Below, piece by piece: positions 4,782-58,398 of a stretch of DNA of 64,000 nucleotides. The stretch is from contig JAHWHZ010000003.1 of the NCBI GenBank assembly GCA_019322895.1, positions 114,492 to 178,491 of the forward strand, read 5' to 3'. The translations under genes were made by a program, and so were the position numbers. Source of the DNA: Candidatus Woesearchaeota archaeon (GTDB taxonomy: Archaea > Nanobdellota > Nanobdellia > Woesearchaeales > ARS49). Every line of letters begins with the position of its first letter. The first letter of the stretch is position 1. Under the pieces are notes generated by a model that was given only the letters and a program-made list of their open reading frames with translations, made no database searches and was not told the DNA's origin.

Positions 4782-4964
4782 CATTGCTGCCTGCGGAGTT
4801 CTCAAGTTTGCATGCCTGCTTTGATAAACCTGAGTTACAAGCAGGTTAAACAGCGTAACGAAGCGCAGCATTGCTGCATTGCGAAGTTCTCAGATTCTTA
4901 TGCTTGATATGATAAATCTGAATTACAGGCAGTTTCAGCAGCAGAATGGAGCGCAGCATTGCTG
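4782..4964 (+). repeat. tandem repeat family 2: two full units (4782-4868, 4869-4956) plus an 8-nt start of a third
   Basis: Both units share cattgctgc..gcgaagttctca..gcttgata(a/t)..ctga.ttaca.gcag.tt.a.cag....agcgcag. A third copy lies at 9161..9255. Confidence 0.85.
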
Positions 4965-4966
4965 TC

Positions 4967-5278
4967 TTATTCTTCTACAACCTGTGGCTGGCTTAGCTCG
5001 CACTTGTCCTTGTAAGGGCATGGATTTTTTTGCCTGTTCTGCCACTCAATGCACTGTCTTTTATCCTGCCCGTCTTTAGTATCCTTGTATTCAATAAAAT
5101 ATGCTTTCCTGCCAGACAGCGGGCAATCTCCCACGCATAAGATTGCAAAAGAAACTGTCTTTCTTTTCCTGTACCTGGATGCAATCTTTTCTGCAGAATC
5201 AATTATCATAGGGTCTTCATTGAACCTTTCTTCAGCTAAAATTTCTAAGTTTTTCTTGTCTGATTTTCCCATCTTCAC
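4967..5278 (-). CDS. hypothetical protein (103 aa, Cys-containing)
   Basis: Track ORF with no recognisable motif. Its stop abuts the family-2 repeat array. Confidence 0.45.
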   Translation of the reverse strand: MKMGKSDKKNLEILAEERFNEDPMIIDSAEKIASRYRKRKTVSFAILCVGDCPLSGRKAYFIEYKDTKDGQDKRQCIEWQNRQKNPCPYKDKCELSQPQVVEE

Positions 5279-5332
5279 CCACCAATACTTTAGAAAGTAC
5301 TTGTCCTTTATAAAATTATTCAGATATCCAGC

Positions 5333-5450
5333 AAATTTTTAAAAAATTTGACTAAAGCGCTCTTCGTTCAGGCTCCAGAAGCACCCCATTAGCTGTTTGC
5401 TTCGCAAACAGGGGCTCTACTCTTCTCTCGCCTTCACGATATCGCGCGAA
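5333..5450 (+). mobile_element. R-element copy 1 (AT hairpin aaatttttaaaaaattt plus 91-nt core 5357-5447), abutting the gyrB stop codon
   Basis: The core aligns by eye along its whole length with 31711-31802 and with the reverse complement of 57912-58003. It is flanked by ttagatatcaagc (gyrB end) and ttcagatatccagc. Confidence 0.6.
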
Positions 5451-7496
<2,046 letters not shown>

Positions 7497-9160: not shown

Positions 9161-9255
9161 CAATGCTGCCTGCGAAGTTCTCAGATGCATATTTGTGCTT
9201 TGATAAGTCTGAGTTACGGGCAGGTTCAGCAGCAGAACAAAGCGCAGCATGGCTG
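9161..9255 (+). repeat. tandem repeat family 2, solitary third copy
   Basis: caatgctgcctgcgaagttctcagat...gctttgataagtctgagttacgggcaggttcagcagcagaacaaagcgcagcatggctg aligns with the 4782-4964 units. Confidence 0.8.
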
Positions 9256-9462
9256 TTTTCGCTCTTTTCCCCTTTTTAAACCTTGTGATATTTTGGCCTG
9301 TAACAGCCTTTCACAGCGTATTTATAAAGGCTTTACTTTCTTGTTCTTGAGGTGAATAAAAATGTTCAATGACAAGACACTCAAAGCATTGCCTGTAGAA
9401 AGGCACGAAGTTTCATACTTAAGAATGCTTGGTGCAAAGCAGCAAAGAAGCAAGCACTGGTG

Positions 9463-31346: not shown

Positions 31347-31619
31347 CGTGTCTTTCCTCCCAAATATCTCTTGTTTTTAAAGTATAAATAACTTTCTATA
31401 TACTTATAGGTAACAGTGACCATTTATAAAGCTTATGGTTTTTTAACTACTTTTCAGTGTCAAAAACAAAAGATTTAAATACTACTAGTGTTTACCTATT
31501 ATTACCATGAAACGAGTTGATTGTATTCATTGTGGATAAACTGAATTCTTATTTTATTAGTTCCAGCTCTATGATGCGAAGTGATTGTATTCATCATCGC
31601 TAGTTCTAAATTCATTCTT

Positions 31620-31687
31620 GGCGGCAGTGGCGTAATGGTAGCGTATGGGACTGTGGCTCCCATGGCGCGGGTTCGATTCCCACCTAA
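31620..31687 (+). pseudogene. truncated tRNA-His relic (5' 62 nt identical to the functional copy, no 3' acceptor strand)
   Basis: 31620-31681 is identical to 31815-31876. The sequence then diverges (cccacctaac vs cccgcctgcc), so the acceptor stem cannot close. Confidence 0.8.
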
Positions 31688-31802
31688 CTTTGAAAAAGTT
31701 AGGATCAAAATGCGTTCTTTGTTCAGGCTCCAGAAGCAATCTATAGGCTGTTTGCTCTGCAAACAGGGATTCAACTCTTCTCTCACCCTCACAATATCAC
31801 GC
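31683..31802 (+). mobile_element. R-element copy 2 (hairpin cctaactttgaaaaagttagg plus core 31711-31802) between the tRNA-His relic and the intact tRNA-His
   Basis: Aligns with 5333-5450 and with the reverse complement of 57912-58032. Confidence 0.6.
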
Positions 31803-31814
31803 AATATTAATTAT

Positions 31815-31886
31815 GGCGGCAGTGGCGTAATGGTAGCGTATGGGACTGTGGCTCCCATGGCGCGGGTTCGATTCCCGCCTGCCGCC
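31815..31886 (+). tRNA. tRNA-His: tRNA-His (GUG) with genome-encoded G-1
   Basis: 8-bp acceptor GGCGGCAG/CTGCCGCC, D arm GGCG..., anticodon arm TGGGA-CTGTGGC-TCCCA (anticodon GTG), T arm GCGGG-TTCGATT-CCCGC. Confidence 0.9.
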
Positions 31887-31936
31887 CTTGATTCTCAAAA
31901 AGATTTATATATAATAATGAATGCAGGTGAATTAAA

Positions 31937-33196
31937 ATGAAATACCAAGCACCAAAAGGGATGGAAGACTATTACCCTGAGAGAGAAGCTGTAAAGAATA
32001 AGATATTTCAGGTATTTAGAGAGGTAGCCATAAGATACGGCTATCAGGAAGTGAGCACTCCTGCAATGGAGTCTTTCAAGCTATTATCTGCTAAGTCTGG
32101 TGAAGAGATAAAACAGCAGATTTTCATGATAGAGAAAAGAGGCGCTGAAAGCCTTGGCTTGAGATTTGATTTGACTGTTCCTATCACAAGGTTATTTATC
32201 ACAAAGCAAAAAGAGCTTGTAAAGCCGGTTAAGTGGTTTTCTATAGGAAAGATGTGGCGCTATGAAGCTCCGCAAAAAGGAAGATTAAGGGAATTCAACC
32301 AATTGAGTGTTGAATTGTTTGGCTCTGACAAGCCAGAGGCAGATGCAGAATTATTGAACATGATAATTGACATAATGAAAGCTCTTGGATTAAGTGACAG
32401 GGATTTCTTTATCAAGATGAACAACAGGAAATTGCTGGAAGGCCTTTTATTGACTGCAATCAAGAAAGACCAGCTGGAAGCAGTTACAAGAGTTATTGAC
32501 AAGAAAAACAAGCTCACAGATGCAGAGTTTGAGCAGGAACTGCTTGACTTGGGGCTGGATAATTTCAAGATCCAGAGGATAAGGCATGCTATACAGTTCA
32601 ATGGCAAGCCGAGCAAGGTCTTGAAAGATATTAAAGAGCATTTTGCAGATGTTCCTGAAGAGACCAAGAGAGGAATAATTGAGATGGAGAATATCTGCAA
32701 GCTAGTTTCAGAAAAATATGTTGTACTGGACTTGTCAGTAGCCCGCGGCCTGGCTTATTACACAGGGACCGTGTTTGAGGTGTTTGACAGGCAGGAAAAA
32801 TTCCGCTCAATGGCAGGCGGAGGCAGGTATGACAATATGGTGAAATTATTTGGAGGAGAAGACTGCCCTGCAACCGGCTTTGCTATCGGAGAAGCTGTAA
32901 CAACTTTAGTGTTAAAGGACTGCAACAAGCTTCCAGAGCCAGAATTAGAGCCAGACTATTTCATAGCTGTCGTGAGCGAGGATGTAAGAAAAGATGCAAT
33001 GAAGCTTGCAGAGAAATTAAGGAAAAAATACAAGGTTGACATTGACCTGATGGGCAGGAAACTGAAAAAGCAATTTGAATATGCGAATTCTATCAAGGCA
33101 AAGAAAGTGATTGTTGTGGGCCCTGATGAAGTCAAGGCAAAGACTTTCACAGTTAAGGACATGAAGACTGGAAAAGAAGAGAAAAAGAAGCTTTAA
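31937..33196 (+). CDS. hisS: histidine--tRNA ligase
   Basis: APKGMEDYYP, class II motif 2 (KMWRYEAPQKGRLREFNQ) and motif 3 (GGGRYDNMV). AGGTGA Shine-Dalgarno upstream. Confidence 0.93.
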   Translation: MKYQAPKGMEDYYPEREAVKNKIFQVFREVAIRYGYQEVSTPAMESFKLLSAKSGEEIKQQIFMIEKRGAESLGLRFDLTVPITRLFITKQKELVKPVKWFSIGKMWRYEAPQKGRLREFNQLSVELFGSDKPEADAELLNMIIDIMKALGLSDRDFFIKMNNRKLLEGLLLTAIKKDQLEAVTRVIDKKNKLTDAEFEQELLDLGLDNFKIQRIRHAIQFNGKPSKVLKDIKEHFADVPEETKRGIIEMENICKLVSEKYVVLDLSVARGLAYYTGTVFEVFDRQEKFRSMAGGGRYDNMVKLFGGEDCPATGFAIGEAVTTLVLKDCNKLPEPELEPDYFIAVVSEDVRKDAMKLAEKLRKKYKVDIDLMGRKLKKQFEYANSIKAKKVIVVGPDEVKAKTFTVKDMKTGKEEKKKL

Positions 33197-42074: not shown

Positions 42075-42150
42075 TTCTTTAATTTGAACCGAAAATCCTC
42101 CGGAAAATTCTCAGCAAGGCATATAAAGAGTAAAAATAAAGAAATAAGCA

Positions 42151-42184
42151 TCGCTTAACCAGGCGACGCAGAGAGCTTACACCT
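42151..42184 (+). pseudogene. relic of the 5' half (positions ~8-41) of the adjacent tRNA
   Basis: tcgcttaaccaggcgacgcagagagcttacacct versus tRNA 42231-42264 tcgcttaatctggtagagcggagagcttacacct (27/34 identical). There is no acceptor strand. Confidence 0.6.
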
Positions 42185-42223: not shown

Positions 42224-42338
42224 GCCGGCGTCGCTTAATCTGGTAGAGCGGAGAGCTTACACCTCTCTGCCCGAAAGGGTTTCTGGGTTCAAAACCAGGA
42301 TGAGGTAATCTCTCTGGGTGAAAATCCCAGCGCCGGCG
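42224..42338 (+). tRNA. tRNA-Val: intron-containing tRNA, anticodon UAC (Val) by loop reading
   Basis: Acceptor GCCGGCG/CGCCGGC, D arm GCTT-AATCTGGTA-GAGC, anticodon arm GAGAG-CTTACAC-CTCTC. The T arm CTGGG-TTCA[...]AAT-CCCAG is interrupted by a ~31-nt insert that folds as bulge-helix-bulge. An extra GCCC-GAAA-GGGT hairpin sits in the variable region. Confidence 0.6.
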
Positions 42339-42373
42339 AACTTCAAAATAAAAAGAATTAGAAAATAAAAAAT

Positions 42374-56759: not shown

Positions 56760-57911
56760 ATGAATATTTCAAATATCTTGATGATAGCATTCTTGATAAT
56801 CCTTAGTCTTACGATATTCATATTCAGGAAGAAATTCAAGTTCCACAGATTTGCAAAGATATTCTATTTTGGGATGTACAAGACAAAAGTGGGATTAAGG
56901 TTGATGGATAAGTGGGCAAATAAGTATCCGAGGATATTAAGAAGATTGTGCTATGCTGCGATTGCAGTCGGATTCATCGGCATGGTTATAGTTGTAGTTG
57001 ACTTGGCCAAATCACTTTATTCAATACTTGCAGGAACATCCACCTTGACAGTTGGACTGGTATTGCCTGTTGAAGCCAAAGGAATCTTTTATGTTCCTTT
57101 TATTTACTGGATTATTGCGGTTTTTGCAATTGTTGTTGTGCACGAGTTTGCGCACGGATTGATTGCAAGGCTGCACAAGATCCGCGTGAAAAGCTCTGGC
57201 GTTGCTTTCTTGGGAGCGATAATCCCTATCATTCCAGCTGCTTTTGTTGAGCCAGATGAAAAGCAGTTAAGAAAAGCTTCAAGATTCAAGCAGTTGAGTG
57301 TCTATGCAGCAGGGCCTTTTGCAAACATTATTTTCGGCTTTGCTTGTTTAGGAATATTTGCATTACTGCTTAATCCTCTTGCAGCCTCTGTATATAATTT
57401 AGAGGGTGTCAAGGTAAATGATTTCATGGGCGTTGACAGCCCTGCAGAGATAAGCGGCATGGCAGCAGGAGATGTGATCACACAAATCAATGACAATGAA
57501 ATAAAGAATACAGATGATTTCATTAATGCGATTGACAAGGCAAATCCAGGTGATGTTGCAGAGATACAGACAAAAGAAAAAACTTATGAAGTATTGTTAG
57601 AAGAAGATCCTGTTGAAAAAGATGCTTTCCTTGGAATCTGGGTGTCAACAGAAAAGTCAATGAAAAACAAGAACCCGTTCTCTTATCTTGTAATATGGCT
57701 GACTGACTTGTTTTACTGGTTATTCTTGCTAAACTTGGGAGTAGGATTGTTCAACCTGATTCCAGTCGGCCCGATTGACGGCGGAAGGATGCTCCAGACT
57801 GTTTTAGAAAAAGTGATGCACACTAAAAAAGCAACAAAAGTGTGGCATGCTGTTAGTTTTGTTGTGCTGGCGATAATTTTAAGTAATATAATTTATGCAT
57901 TTGTGGCATAA
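56760..57911 (+). CDS. site-2 protease (M50 family) with PDZ domain
   Basis: HEFAHGLIA (HExxH) within a TM helix, a PDZ-like GMAAGDVITQINDNEI segment, and C-terminal NLIPVGPIDGG. Confidence 0.9.
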   Translation: MNISNILMIAFLIILSLTIFIFRKKFKFHRFAKIFYFGMYKTKVGLRLMDKWANKYPRILRRLCYAAIAVGFIGMVIVVVDLAKSLYSILAGTSTLTVGLVLPVEAKGIFYVPFIYWIIAVFAIVVVHEFAHGLIARLHKIRVKSSGVAFLGAIIPIIPAAFVEPDEKQLRKASRFKQLSVYAAGPFANIIFGFACLGIFALLLNPLAASVYNLEGVKVNDFMGVDSPAEISGMAAGDVITQINDNEIKNTDDFINAIDKANPGDVAEIQTKEKTYEVLLEEDPVEKDAFLGIWVSTEKSMKNKNPFSYLVIWLTDLFYWLFLLNLGVGLFNLIPVGPIDGGRMLQTVLEKVMHTKKATKVWHAVSFVVLAIILSNIIYAFVA

Positions 57912-58040
57912 GCGCGATATTGTGAAGGCGAGAGAAGAGTTAAATCCATGTTTGCGTGAGCAAACATCATATCGATTGCTTCTGGAGCCTGAACAAAGAG
58001 CGCCCTTTGATCCTAACTTTTTTAAAGTTAGGCGATCATA
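57912..58040 (-). mobile_element. R-element copy 3 (core 57912-58003, hairpin 58012-58032), inverted relative to copies 1 and 2
   Basis: Begins at the base after the S2P stop codon. Flanked by 33-nt direct repeats at 57879-57911 and 58041-58073. Confidence 0.65.
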
Positions 58041-58073
58041 TTAAGTAATATAATATACGCATTTGTGGCTTAA
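58041..58073 (+). repeat. displaced copy of the last 33 nt of the S2P protease gene
   Basis: 30/33 identical to 57879-57911. All three differences are synonymous, and both copies read LSNIIYAFVA*. Confidence 0.85.
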
Positions 58074-58074
58074 A

Positions 58075-58398
58075 ATGACGGGAGATCCTCTTTATGAATT
58101 TTTGAAAACTGCATCAGCTGAACAGCTGGACTTGCTGGCAAATGTTGTAGAAGCGCTTGCAAGAGAGAGGCAATTATCTGAACAGATAACAAACATATCT
58201 GACAGAAATGATATCTCTGCTGTCTGCCACCGGACTATTTCTGAAGACCCAACATTGATTCCATCTGCTTTAAAGCTGGAGCGTAAAGAAACAAGAGCTG
58301 AAATAAAAGCCTATTTGCAAACAGCAATAAAACAGTTTGGCAATGTGGATTTTATTAGAAGCTGCTATCGAGATTATGTTGGAGATTTGCCTGAATAA
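58075..58398 (+). CDS. hypothetical protein (107 aa)
   Basis: The ATG at 58075 is preferred over the TTG in the track, which lies inside the duplicated segment. Confidence 0.5.
   Translation: MTGDPLYEFLKTASAEQLDLLANVVEALARERQLSEQITNISDRNDISAVCHRTISEDPTLIPSALKLERKETRAEIKAYLQTAIKQFGNVDFIRSCYRDYVGDLPE

What the first reader, a model, noticed from the sequence alone, without database searches (positions are those of the whole stretch)
31620..31886. Same R-element sandwiched between a truncated tRNA-His copy and the intact tRNA-His next to hisS
31620-31681 is base-for-base identical to the first 62 nt of the intact tRNA-His (31815-31886). The relic lacks the 3' acceptor strand and runs straight into the R-element hairpin (cctaactttgaaaaagttagg) and core. 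The architecture is functional gene, then core, then hairpin, then displaced copy of the gene terminus. That matches the gyrB and S2P insertions, except that here the duplicated terminus is the 5' part of a tRNA. The element therefore appears to target or rebuild gene ends regardless of whether they are protein- or RNA-coding. It also leaves a promoter-proximal tRNA 5' fragment that could be transcribed.
Basis: seen in the sequence. Interest (0 to 1): 0.7.

Follow-up and report, generated by a model that had tools for sequence, protein, structure and literature searches.

The report
Structured repeat duplicating archaeal gene ends
A 125-base non-coding, tightly folded repeat found in a group of tiny archaea (Woesearchaeota) sits at gene ends next to a spare copy of that gene end. 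Here the spare copy is a dead 5' fragment of the histidine tRNA gene, and the way the repeat spreads looks unlike any described mobile element.

Summary
Window 31620-31681 is a 62/62-base copy of intact tRNA-His (31815-31886). The copy lacks the 3' acceptor strand and runs into a hairpin (31683-31703) and a ~100-nt core (31704-31802).

The same hairpin+core ("E") lies after gyrB (5332-5447) and after the M50/S2P protease gene (57912-58032). Each is flanked by a copy of that gene's end (12 and 43 nt).

E is a covarying rod-like fold. It matches no Rfam family, and no transposase or integrase was found among 59 of 84 window ORFs.

Close relatives have clean empty sites at gyrB and S2P. There the "relic" is the native gene end, with its native TGA stop and native downstream DNA. 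At tRNA-His, four relative loci (three arrangements) keep the upstream tRNA intact and have decayed the downstream copy instead.

E identity disagrees with host relatedness, and the five S2P copy differences are all synonymous.

Best reading: a non-autonomous element moves together with a copy of the neighbouring gene end. It integrates by one homologous join and one microhomology join at the hairpin base. The mechanism is inferred.

Verdict: a real feature and a new variant of a known kind.

The parts
31620..31685 (+). Relic tRNA-His. It covers G-1 to position 61 exactly, then A (G in the gene), then CCT shared with the hairpin. The 3' acceptor strand is missing.
   Evidence: (D6)
31683..31703 (+). 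Hairpin module of element copy B (CCTAACTTT-GAA-AAAGTTAGG).
   Evidence: helix 5: 8 pairs, 2 with compensatory changes
31704..31802 (+). Core of element copy B. It forms a rod-like four-helix fold, and the reverse strand is the better folder.
   Evidence: (D4)
31803..31814 (+). 12-nt AT-rich spacer (aatattaattat) between the core and the intact tRNA. It is homologous to the native tRNA-His upstream sequence of the L036/L010 lineages.
   Evidence: the L036 repeat of 76 nt includes it
31815..31886 (+). Intact tRNA-His(GTG), with encoded G-1 and discriminator C.
31937..33196 (+). hisS (histidyl-tRNA synthetase), the downstream neighbour.
5320..5331 (-). Relic of the gyrB end (ctggatatcTGA). It is the native end, with native stop and native downstream DNA.
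   Evidence: the empty sites L053 and L054 end ...atcTGA/...attTGA
5332..5447 (+). Element copy A: hairpin 5332-5350 (caaattttt-a-aaaaatttg) and core 5351-5447.
5451..5462 (-). Functional gyrB end (cttgatatcTAA), 3 nt from the core end.
57869..57911 (+). Functional 3' end of the M50/S2P protease gene (AIILSNIIYAFVA*). It abuts the core end with 0 nt between them.
57912..58032 (-). Element copy C: core 57912-58011 and hairpin 58012-58032.
58031..58073 (+). Relic copy of the S2P 3' end. It has 5 differences from the functional copy, all synonymous.
   Evidence: (D9)

Best explanation
The R element (E, about 125 nt) consists of a short hairpin plus a rod-like core. It is a non-coding, non-autonomous repeat that spreads within and between related Woesearchaeota genomes.

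It does not move alone. The unit that integrates is hairpin-core-(0-30 nt filler)-copy of the neighbouring gene terminus. One end of the unit is fixed at the base of the hairpin and is joined to the target by 1-4 nt of microhomology. The other end is anchored by homology in the gene terminus. This is either single-crossover (Campbell-type) integration of a small circle, or homology-facilitated illegitimate recombination or copy-choice.

The product is [gene end]-E-[gene end]. One copy stays attached to the gene and works. The other is a relic.

At tRNA-His the product was tRNA-hairpin-core-spacer-tRNA. In the window's lineage the upstream copy then lost its 3' acceptor strand through an 8-nt deletion at a CCT repeat and became the relic. 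In sister lineages the downstream copy decayed instead.

The intact tRNA-His now has no recognisable promoter of its own at the usual distance. It is probably made from a precursor that starts at the relic's promoter and runs through E.

Shown: the anatomy, the fold, presence/absence polymorphism, the native status of the relics, and the discordant phylogeny.
Inferred: the circular or copy-choice intermediate, the enzyme, and the transcription.
For: (1) E is a defined family. There are three copies in the window and no weaker ones (nhmmer; covariance model with filters off). About a dozen further distinct copies occur only in Woesearchaeota/Nanoarchaeota-type contigs.

(2) The fold is conserved. 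98.9% of cells pair, 10 pairs show compensatory changes, and 0/500 shuffles reach this. The reverse strand folds at -43.2 kcal/mol (z -4.9) against -31.9 (z -3.3) for the forward strand. The reverse strand also has purine-rich internal loops and more G-U pairs.

(3) Relatives have clean empty sites. At gyrB, L053 (93% aa) and L054 read ...atcTGAgtaattttataagg. The window reads ...atcTAAttc[E]ctggatatcTGAataattttataaagg. At S2P, L048/L049 are empty. In L052 the relic ends TGA and is followed by the native downstream DNA.

(4) Flanking repeats vary from 12 to 76 nt and always match the local gene: tRNA-His 5' part, S2P, gyrB, the L039 and L014 3' ends, the L015/L032 5' end, and the L038 promoter.

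(5) Differences between the two copies look allele-like. At S2P, 5/5 are synonymous (chance 3e-4). At gyrB there are 2/2 (Leu, stop), at L039 1/1, and at L032 2/2. The L010 relic differs from its gene by compensatory stem changes. The L036 relic is a chimera of two tRNA-His types.

(6) E moves independently of the chromosome. L010 and L031 are 82% identical in hisS but 95-96% identical in the tRNA 3' half plus E. The window and L031 are 93% identical in hisS but only 83% in E.

(7) The filler between core and repeat varies (0-30 nt), while the hairpin side abuts the repeat with 1-4 nt of shared bases.

(8) tRNA-His locus series. L031/L041, L042 and L047 carry full tRNA + hairpin + core + a 3' relic. 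L010 carries 5' relic + E + full tRNA + E + 3' relic.

(9) No transposase or integrase was found among the 59 of 84 window ORFs scanned.
Against: No intermediate (circle or junction) has been seen, and no enzyme is identified.

The core-side boundary of the duplication coincides with the last base of the stop codon (gyrB, S2P in three lineages, L014) or lies 2 nt before the ATG (L015). A purely homology-driven model does not predict this.

The E-proximal stop is TAA where the native one is TGA, in two genes. This may mean something more specific is happening.

The repeats in L015 and in window copy B are identical. That fits a duplication made on the spot as well as an imported copy.

Some relics (L050, L052, L014) also carry non-synonymous or indel changes near the hairpin.

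Synonymous-only differences can also arise if a simple target duplication was followed by allelic replacement of one copy.

No relative with tRNA-His next to hisS but without E was found, so polarity at this particular locus is inferred from the other loci.
Confidence: 0.55

Rival explanations
1. E is a classical cut-and-paste or copy-and-paste miniature transposon. Its unseen transposase makes widely staggered cuts, so each insertion creates a long target-site duplication. Later differences between the copies come from drift and from allelic replacement of the functional copy.
For: E is flanked by direct repeats of local sequence, and relatives have clean empty sites. The repeats are identical at window copy B and at L015. 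The two ends of the core are inverted-complementary.
Against: Repeat length ranges from 12 to 76 nt, whereas transposases give a fixed length. Variable, copy-specific filler lies between the core end and the repeat. In L050 the repeat includes the first 10 nt of E itself. The 5/5 synonymous differences at S2P need an extra assumption. No transposase was found in the 59 window ORFs scanned, though one could lie elsewhere in the genome.
Confidence: 0.15
2. E is primarily a host RNA module, such as a 3'-UTR or leader structure, a terminator, a stabiliser, or a small RNA. It is kept by selection. The duplicated gene ends are by-products of unequal crossing-over and gene conversion between copies, not of mobility.
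For: There is strong structural covariation and an invariant 18-mer. E sits immediately after stop codons on the strand that folds best. E is better conserved than neighbouring coding DNA between L010 and L031. In L051 the S2P locus is joined to the tRNA-His locus through E, which suggests recombination between copies.
Against: At tRNA-His, L015 and L038 the well-folding strand is antisense to the adjacent gene. Presence/absence polymorphism at essential genes in close relatives shows E is dispensable there. Unequal crossing-over does not create a first copy at a new gene. No Rfam family matches.
Confidence: 0.17
3. The hairpin and core are the joined left and right ends (att scars) of a larger integrase-borne element, a plasmid or virus, that integrates into gene ends and carries a replacement end. 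The 125-nt form is what remains after the interior was deleted.
For: The 5'-fragment / insert / intact-tRNA architecture matches archaeal integrative elements, for example the 1.8-kb recombinase-carrying insert at tRNA-Thr of Caldiarchaeum (PMC3293823). In L031 E is followed by a 60-codon ORF before a tRNA 3' relic. Extra hairpins, or a ~125-nt insert, occur inside some copies (L015, L022, L014).
Against: The same ~125-nt boundaries are found at more than 10 unrelated loci. No copy has a recombinase between hairpin and core. E is absent from 2.9 million viral contigs. An integrase would not target gyrB, S2P, tRNA-His, a phosphoesterase 5' end and a tRNA promoter alike.
Confidence: 0.07
4. The upstream fragment is the 5' piece of a split or permuted tRNA-His that is completed in trans.
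For: Split tRNA genes exist in Nanoarchaeota (own knowledge). The Rfam tRNA model still scores the fragment at 44 bits.
Against: An intact tRNA-His lies 195 nt downstream. No separate 3' piece is present in the window. The missing part is only 8 nt, and in relatives the same position holds a complete gene.
Confidence: 0.01

Closest known systems
Archaeal integrative elements that split tRNA genes (e.g. the recombinase-carrying 1.8-kb insert at tRNA-Thr(GGU) of Caldiarchaeum subterraneum, PMC3293823; pNOB8/SSV-type integration)
   Same: A 5' tRNA fragment is left upstream, foreign DNA lies in the middle, and an intact tRNA downstream owes its 5' part to the insert. The arrangement is polymorphic in natural populations.
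   Different: E is 125 nt, non-coding and has no recombinase. The same element also duplicates protein-gene 3' ends, a protein-gene 5' end and a promoter. Repeat lengths run from 12 to 76 nt instead of a fixed att core.
Structured intergenic repeats of bacteria: REP/BIME, ERIC/IRU, Correia (CREE), Rickettsia palindromic elements (own knowledge)
   Same: They are about 100-150 nt imperfect palindromes present in many copies. They sit at gene ends, are co-transcribed, fold into long hairpins, and lack coding capacity.
   Different: Those elements have no or short fixed target duplications (for example TA) and known or suspected transposases (RAYT for REP). E carries along and duplicates tens of bases of the adjacent gene, is archaeal (DPANN), and has a separate terminal hairpin module that it shares with a second element type.
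Campbell-type or homology-facilitated illegitimate recombination, and prophage insertions that carry a substitute gene end (e14/phage 21 in icd of E. coli; own knowledge)
   Same: Integration duplicates the homologous gene segment. The gene stays intact because the incoming DNA supplies an alternative end. The two ends differ mostly at synonymous sites. One junction is homologous and the other uses microhomology.
   Different: In those cases a large element with an integrase, or experimental transformation, is involved. Here the passenger is a 125-nt structured repeat found at many different genes.
Integron attC sites (own knowledge)
   Same: Both are single-strand-folding imperfect palindromes. 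The hairpin arms CCTAAC...GTTAGG resemble the RYYYAAC/GTTRRRY core sites.
   Different: Other copies use CAAAC...GTTTG, which violates the core-site consensus. No IntI, no attI and no cassette ORFs are present, and the hairpin is only 21 nt.

Membership tests
tRNA-targeting integrative element (tyrosine/serine recombinase) | A recombinase gene lies inside the inserted DNA. | tested here: not met
   The insert is 133 nt (31682-31814) with no ORF of its own. No integrase Pfam hit was found in the 59 window ORFs scanned.
tRNA-targeting integrative element (tyrosine/serine recombinase) | Direct repeats of part of the target gene flank the insert, and the gene is reconstituted. | tested here: met
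   A 67-nt repeat flanks the insert and an intact tRNA-His lies downstream.
tRNA-targeting integrative element (tyrosine/serine recombinase) | One specific att site is used per element family. | tested here: not met
   The same element is found at gyrB, S2P, tRNA-His, L015, L039, L014 and L038.
MITE (miniature inverted-repeat transposable element) | Small, non-coding and multi-copy, with presence/absence polymorphism. | tested here: met
MITE (miniature inverted-repeat transposable element) | Short target-site duplication of fixed length. | tested here: not met
   The duplications are 12, 18, 25, 37, 43, 57, 67 and 76 nt.
MITE (miniature inverted-repeat transposable element) | Terminal inverted repeats matching those of an autonomous IS. 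| tested here: inconclusive
   The core ends are inverted-complementary (GCGC...GCGC), but the hairpin lies outside them. No parent IS was seen in the window or loci, and whole genomes were not available.
REP/BIME-type repeats | Palindromic unit at gene 3' ends with an associated RAYT (IS200/IS605-like Y1 transposase). | tested here: inconclusive
   The palindrome and its position are met. No Y1/HUH protein was found in the window ORFs scanned. The rest of the genome was not searched.
Split or permuted tRNA | A separately encoded complementary 3' piece, and no intact gene copy. | tested here: not met
Integron attC | RYYYAAC / GTTRRRY core sites conserved across members, plus an IntI integrase. 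| tested here: not met
   The hairpin arms covary (CTAAC/GTTAG versus CAAAC/GTTTG). No integrase was found.
Known RNA family (Rfam 15) | A match at or near the gathering score. | tested here: not met
   Only the tRNA model matches. The best other hit has E = 3.2.

The most novel reading that the evidence does not exclude
E represents a previously undescribed kind of archaeal mobile DNA. It would be a structured about 125-nt element with one defined end (the hairpin base). It would copy out into whatever flanks its other end and re-enter the chromosome through that captured gene terminus. It would thereby replace native gene ends (including TGA>TAA stops), leave relic termini, seed tRNA gene fragments, and mediate rearrangements between loci. 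The hairpin would be the recognition site of an unknown strand-specific enzyme and would be shared with at least one other element type and with a tRNA intron.
Probability: 0.3. Interest if true: 0.85.

Novelty: new variant of a known kind. Interest (0 to 1): 0.62.

Why it matters
If the reading holds, three consequences follow.

(1) It gives a concrete, sequence-level route by which tRNA gene fragments, chimeric tRNAs and possibly split or intron-bearing tRNA genes arise in DPANN archaea without an integrase. This is a long-standing question in tRNA gene evolution.

(2) It shows that very small non-coding elements can hitch-hike between lineages on the conserved ends of essential genes. In doing so they swap gene termini and stop codons and rewire promoters. 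Here the only intact tRNA-His appears to depend on the relic's promoter.

(3) It supplies a well-defined, covarying about 125-nt fold with an invariant 18-mer. This is a handle for finding the protein that recognises it in organisms that cannot yet be cultured alone.

For annotation, such relics are a source of false tRNA calls. Rfam scores this one above its gathering threshold, and ARAGORN calls the L036 relic a tRNA.

Tried and rejected
- Rfam at gathering and at permissive thresholds found no family for E.
- IMG/VR scans with two conserved motifs gave only one chance hit in GC-rich DNA, L040.
- The genome and metagenome scans with the 18-mer returned mostly chance hits. True copies were separated by their flanking motifs.
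- Pfam on 59 of 84 window ORFs found no transposase, integrase, HUH or RT protein.
- A covariance model with filters off found no further diverged copies in the window.
- The literature searches gave no description of this element.
- I looked for a relative with tRNA-His next to hisS but without E and found none. L043-L046 have hisS in another context without the tRNA.
- A diversity-generating retroelement (TR/VR pair) was considered and rejected, because the copy differences are not adenine-specific.
- C/D-box, H/ACA and K-turn readings were rejected. The core has symmetric GA/GA and GAG/GGA loops, no 3-nt bulge and no ACA box.
- The bulge-helix-bulge intron motif does not fit the core.
- An outward promoter in the core end was examined. 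The spacing to the tRNA or ATG is inconsistent between copies.
- The 12-nt match between the L015 gene (CTCGCCTTCACA) and the core was noted, but it does not explain the junctions.
- The last look-up (L055-57) returned the same genome as the window and no new copies.

Full report
**1. What is in the sequence**

The window comes from a Woesearchaeota (DPANN) archaeon.
- It is about 40% GC.
- It encodes ribosomal protein S3Ae, a RIO kinase, FtsZ, GyrB and HisRS.
- The nearest named HisRS, S2P and GyrB homologues are all "Candidatus Woesearchaeota".

ARAGORN finds one tRNA in the window, tRNA-His(GTG) at 31816-31887. With its encoded G-1 the gene is 31815-31886.

The repeat finder shows that 31619-31685 copies 31814-31880, 67 nt with a single mismatch (D6). 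The first 62 bases from G-1 are identical.

After position 61 the upstream copy reads A-CCT-AAC..., while the gene reads G-CCT-GCCGCC. The 3' acceptor strand is therefore missing. Rfam still scores the copy at 44 bits, but 3 of 7 acceptor pairs and one T-stem pair are broken.

The copy runs into a 9-bp hairpin (31683-31703). A ~100-nt core follows (31704-31802), then a 12-nt AT-rich spacer, then the intact gene.

**2. The element**

The hairpin+core unit, called E here, occurs three times in the window and nowhere else in it. This holds for nhmmer and for a covariance model with filters off.
- Copy A is at 5332-5447 (+).
- Copy B is at 31683-31802 (+).
- Copy C is at 57912-58032 (-).

An 18-mer, GTTCAGGCTCCAGAAGCA, is invariant in the three window copies; the other copies were found by searching with it (L010 copy 1, found independently, differs at 5 positions). 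Scanning 596 Gb of genomes and the metagenome collection with it gave about 17 chance hits each, plus true copies. All true copies are in DPANN-type contigs: L004/L038, L010/L020, L014/L024, L015/L032, L022, L025, L030, L031, L036 and L039.

Eleven copies align at 84% mean column identity. Together they define five helices.
- Four nested helices make a rod: GCGC/GCGC, TTGT/ACAA, AGGC/GCCT and AGAAG/CTTCT, capped by an 8-bp stem-loop.
- The fifth helix is the separate terminal hairpin.

98.9% of cells form standard pairs, and 10 of 33 pairs show compensatory double changes. In L010 copy 1, for example, three adjacent pairs change together (AGGC>GAAC with GCCT>GTTC). No shuffle out of 500 reaches this, and slid registers drop to 35-47% paired.

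The reverse strand (5'-GCGCGAYATTGTGAAGGCGAGAGAAG...hairpin-3') appears to be the functional one.
- It folds better: -43.2 kcal/mol, z -4.9, against -31.9, z -3.3.
- It tolerates more G-U pairs: 7 cells against 3.
- It places purines in every internal loop (GA/GA, GAG/GGA).

So E works as a single strand, either RNA or ssDNA, and that strand is probably the reverse one. No Rfam family matches, and E is not found in IMG/VR.

**3. Flanking duplications are the rule, and relics are the native ends**

Copy C. The last 43 nt of the S2P gene (57869-57911) recur at 58031-58073 with 5 differences. All five are synonymous, and both copies encode AIILSNIIYAFVA*. The probability under random substitution is 3e-4.

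Copy A. The gyrB end cttgatatcTAA (5451-5462, minus strand) recurs as ctggatatcTGA (5320-5331), directly abutting the hairpin.

Related loci:

| Locus | Repeat length | What is duplicated | Differences between copies |
|---|---|---|---|
| L039 | 57 nt | protein 3' end | 1, synonymous; the last codons differ (MGL* against LF*) |
| L014 | 25 nt | protein 3' end | diverged (LSINPIC* against LINPIY*) |
| L015 | 37 nt | protein 5' end, starting 2 nt before the ATG | none |
| L032 | 37 nt | same protein 5' end | 2, both synonymous |
| L038 | 18 nt | BRE/TATA region of a tRNA-Asp gene | 2 (16/18 identical) |
| L036 | 76 nt | tRNA-His | chimeric, see section 4 |
| L010 | 65 nt | tRNA-His | compensatory stem changes |

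Close relatives supply empty sites.
- gyrB in L053 (93% aa identity) reads gagcttgacatcTGAgtaattttataagg. The window reads gagcttgatatcTAAttc[E]ctggatatcTGAataattttataaagg. L054 is also empty.
- S2P in L048/L049 is empty: ...gtagcaTGAattctgtttcacaacattta.
- In L052, from the genome of L010, the order is S2P-TAA, then E, then a relic ending TGAgttctctttcataacattta.

The relic is therefore the original gene end, still joined to its original stop codon and downstream DNA. The working end next to the core is a second copy.

In both genes the native stop is TGA and the E-proximal stop is TAA.

On the core side, the repeat boundary falls on the last base of the stop codon (gyrB, S2P in three lineages, L014) or 2 nt before the ATG (L015). 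Between the core and the repeat there is copy-specific filler of 0-30 nt.

On the hairpin side, the relic abuts the hairpin with 1-4 shared bases.

In L050 the relic also contains the first 10 nt of E itself.

**4. The tRNA-His locus in relatives**

L031/L041 share 93% nt identity in hisS with the window and are syntenic with it over about 20 kb. They have a complete tRNA-His exactly where the window has the relic, behind the same upstream sequence.
- The discriminator base is followed at once by the hairpin and core.
- Next comes a 60-codon ORF, then a probable 3' tRNA relic (gatcttat-cttgccc), then hisS.

L042 and L047 have full tRNA, hairpin, core, 4 nt, ggttc-(c/t)gccc (a 3' relic with an internal deletion), then hisS. 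L047 also has a second hairpin.

L036 resembles the window: 5' relic, E, the identical 12-nt spacer, then the tRNA. Its relic is a chimera of two tRNA-His sequence types.

L010 has 5' relic, E1, full tRNA, E2, 3' relic plus a truncated third hairpin/core, then hisS.

Compared with the full tRNA+hairpin arrangement (...CCCGCCTGCCGCCCTAAC...), the relics of the window, L036 and L010 (...CCC[G/A]CCTAAC...) differ by an 8-nt deletion between two CCT repeats.

The locus is therefore best described as tRNA-E-tRNA, with or without more units, in which one copy decays. Which copy decays differs between lineages.

I found no relative with tRNA-His next to hisS and no E. L043-L046 have hisS in another context.

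**5. E moves independently of its host chromosome**

| Comparison | hisS identity | E identity |
|---|---|---|
| L010 vs L031 | 82% | 95-96% (tRNA 3' half plus E) |
| Window vs L031 | 93% | 83% |

The window relic is also only 82% identical to the L031 tRNA.

E copies do not cluster by locus.

In L051, whose S2P protein is identical to that of L050, S2P-TAA-E is followed by tRNA-His in reverse orientation. That E is 99% identical to the tRNA-His copy of L042. This is either a recombinant between two inverted E copies or, less likely given only about 30 nt of shared identity, an assembly chimera.

**6. Mechanism (inferred)**

The facts to explain are these:
- one fixed end at the hairpin base, joined by microhomology;
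- one variable end that carries filler plus a copy of the adjacent gene terminus;
- duplication lengths from 12 to 76 nt;
- allele-like differences between the copies;
- native relics;
- clean empty sites;
- discordant phylogeny.

Together these fit a unit [hairpin-core-filler-gene end] that enters a homologous gene end by a single homologous exchange. It could do so as a small circle (Campbell-type). It could also enter by homology-facilitated illegitimate recombination or copy-choice, with the second join at the hairpin base.

A hairpin that stalls synthesis, or that is nicked by a strand-specific enzyme, would explain the fixed end. The same hairpin type heads a second, unrelated about 100-nt element (L031 434-536). 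It also sits alone in a tRNA-Asp intron (L038 7099-7121). This suggests the hairpin is the recognised module.

None of these steps has been observed, and no enzyme is known.

A fixed-stagger transposase, an integrase scar and a split tRNA fit worse (see the rival explanations). A host RNA function for E is compatible with mobility and remains open.

The coincidence of the boundary with the stop or start codon, and the TGA>TAA change, are unexplained. Two possibilities are microhomology at the stop codon inherited from the parent copy, or selection against read-through of UGA followed by a stable structure.

**7. Consequence for tRNA-His here (inference)**

The relic keeps the upstream region that carries the functional gene in L031. 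The intact gene has only E and a 12-nt AT-rich spacer upstream, with no TATA-like box at about -26.

The only tRNA-His gene found in the window is therefore probably transcribed from the relic's promoter as a precursor of about 270 nt (relic-hairpin-core-tRNA) and released by RNase P.

**8. Verdict**

It needs correction on how the relic arose and on which copy is native.

The closest known things differ in the following ways:
- integrase-borne tRNA-disrupting elements of archaea (PMC3293823): E lacks an integrase;
- bacterial structured repeats such as REP, ERIC and Correia: E is not intergenic-only with a short fixed duplication;
- substitute-gene-end prophage insertions: E is not locus-specific.

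I rate it a new variant of a known kind. There is a real chance, about 0.3, that it is a new class of mobile element.

Noticed in passing
window 42148-42184 and about 42225-42346 (+): A second 'tRNA 5' relic upstream of a tRNA', this time without the R element. A 37-nt, 78%-identical copy of the D-arm-to-anticodon-loop part lies about 43 nt upstream of an unannotated tRNA-Val(TAC)-like gene. That gene has acceptor gccggcg...cgccggc and carries a ~45-nt insert between the anticodon arm and the T arm. ARAGORN and Rfam both miss the gene.
   Followed up: partly
window 4792-4968 and 9171-9259; L025 4343-4436: Another repeat family. Its 89-nt unit, TGCGAAGTTCTCAG...GCGCAGCATTGCTG, is tandem x2 next to the rpS3Ae gene and single at 9171. 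It is also present near an E copy in L025.
   Followed up: no
L031 434-536 (also L041, L010); empty in window between 31571 and 31572: A second small element of about 100 nt. It begins with the same kind of hairpin (ctaaactttacaaaagtttag) but has a different core (gaagtcaaagatgtgagacgcaaggtctcac...). It is inserted upstream of tRNA-His in relatives, is absent from the window, and is 95.5% identical between L010 and L031.
   Followed up: partly
window 31511-31532 and 31577-31598: A short diverged direct repeat (ga[g/a]gt[t]gattgtattcat) lies upstream of the relic. The second copy is at about -26 to -43 from the relic and may be its promoter. The element described in the previous item sits between the two copies in relatives.
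   Followed up: no
L038 7058-7185: A tRNA-Asp(GTC) gene has an intron of about 55 nt that contains a solitary copy of the element's hairpin plus ATCAAA (7099-7121). It lies about 100 nt downstream of a full E copy. ARAGORN does not call this tRNA.
   Followed up: partly
L051 1778-2050 vs L050 and L042: The S2P gene end plus E is joined to tRNA-His in reverse orientation. This E is 99% identical to the tRNA-His-linked copy of L042. It suggests an inversion by recombination between two E copies in one population, or a chimeric contig.
   Followed up: partly
window 5451-5453 vs 5320-5322; L052 vs L048: Where the native stop codon is TGA (relic and empty-site relatives), the stop next to the element's core end is TAA. 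This is seen in both gyrB and S2P.
   Followed up: partly
L014 4691-4813 (= L024): One E copy is itself interrupted, inside its central stem, by an insert of about 125 nt with TGTCA...TGACA-type inverted ends. This may be another miniature element.
   Followed up: no
window 58075-58398; L050 2850-3158; L031 806-987: Small ORFs without Pfam hits lie just beyond E-associated relics. They are 107 and 102 codons after S2P, both ending ...YVG(D/EE)LPE*, and 60 codons after the tRNA-His-linked E in L031. They are absent from L048 and L052. It is unknown whether they are cargo or ordinary variable genes.
   Followed up: no
one search hit list (relatives of window 5451-7385): Several Woesearchaeota GyrB homologues are 800-1100 aa with an intein domain (PF14890). 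The window's GyrB (644 aa) has none.
   Followed up: no
L036 213-285: ARAGORN calls the L036 relic a tRNA-His, and Rfam scores the window relic above the tRNA gathering score. Such relics will inflate automated tRNA counts.
   Followed up: yes
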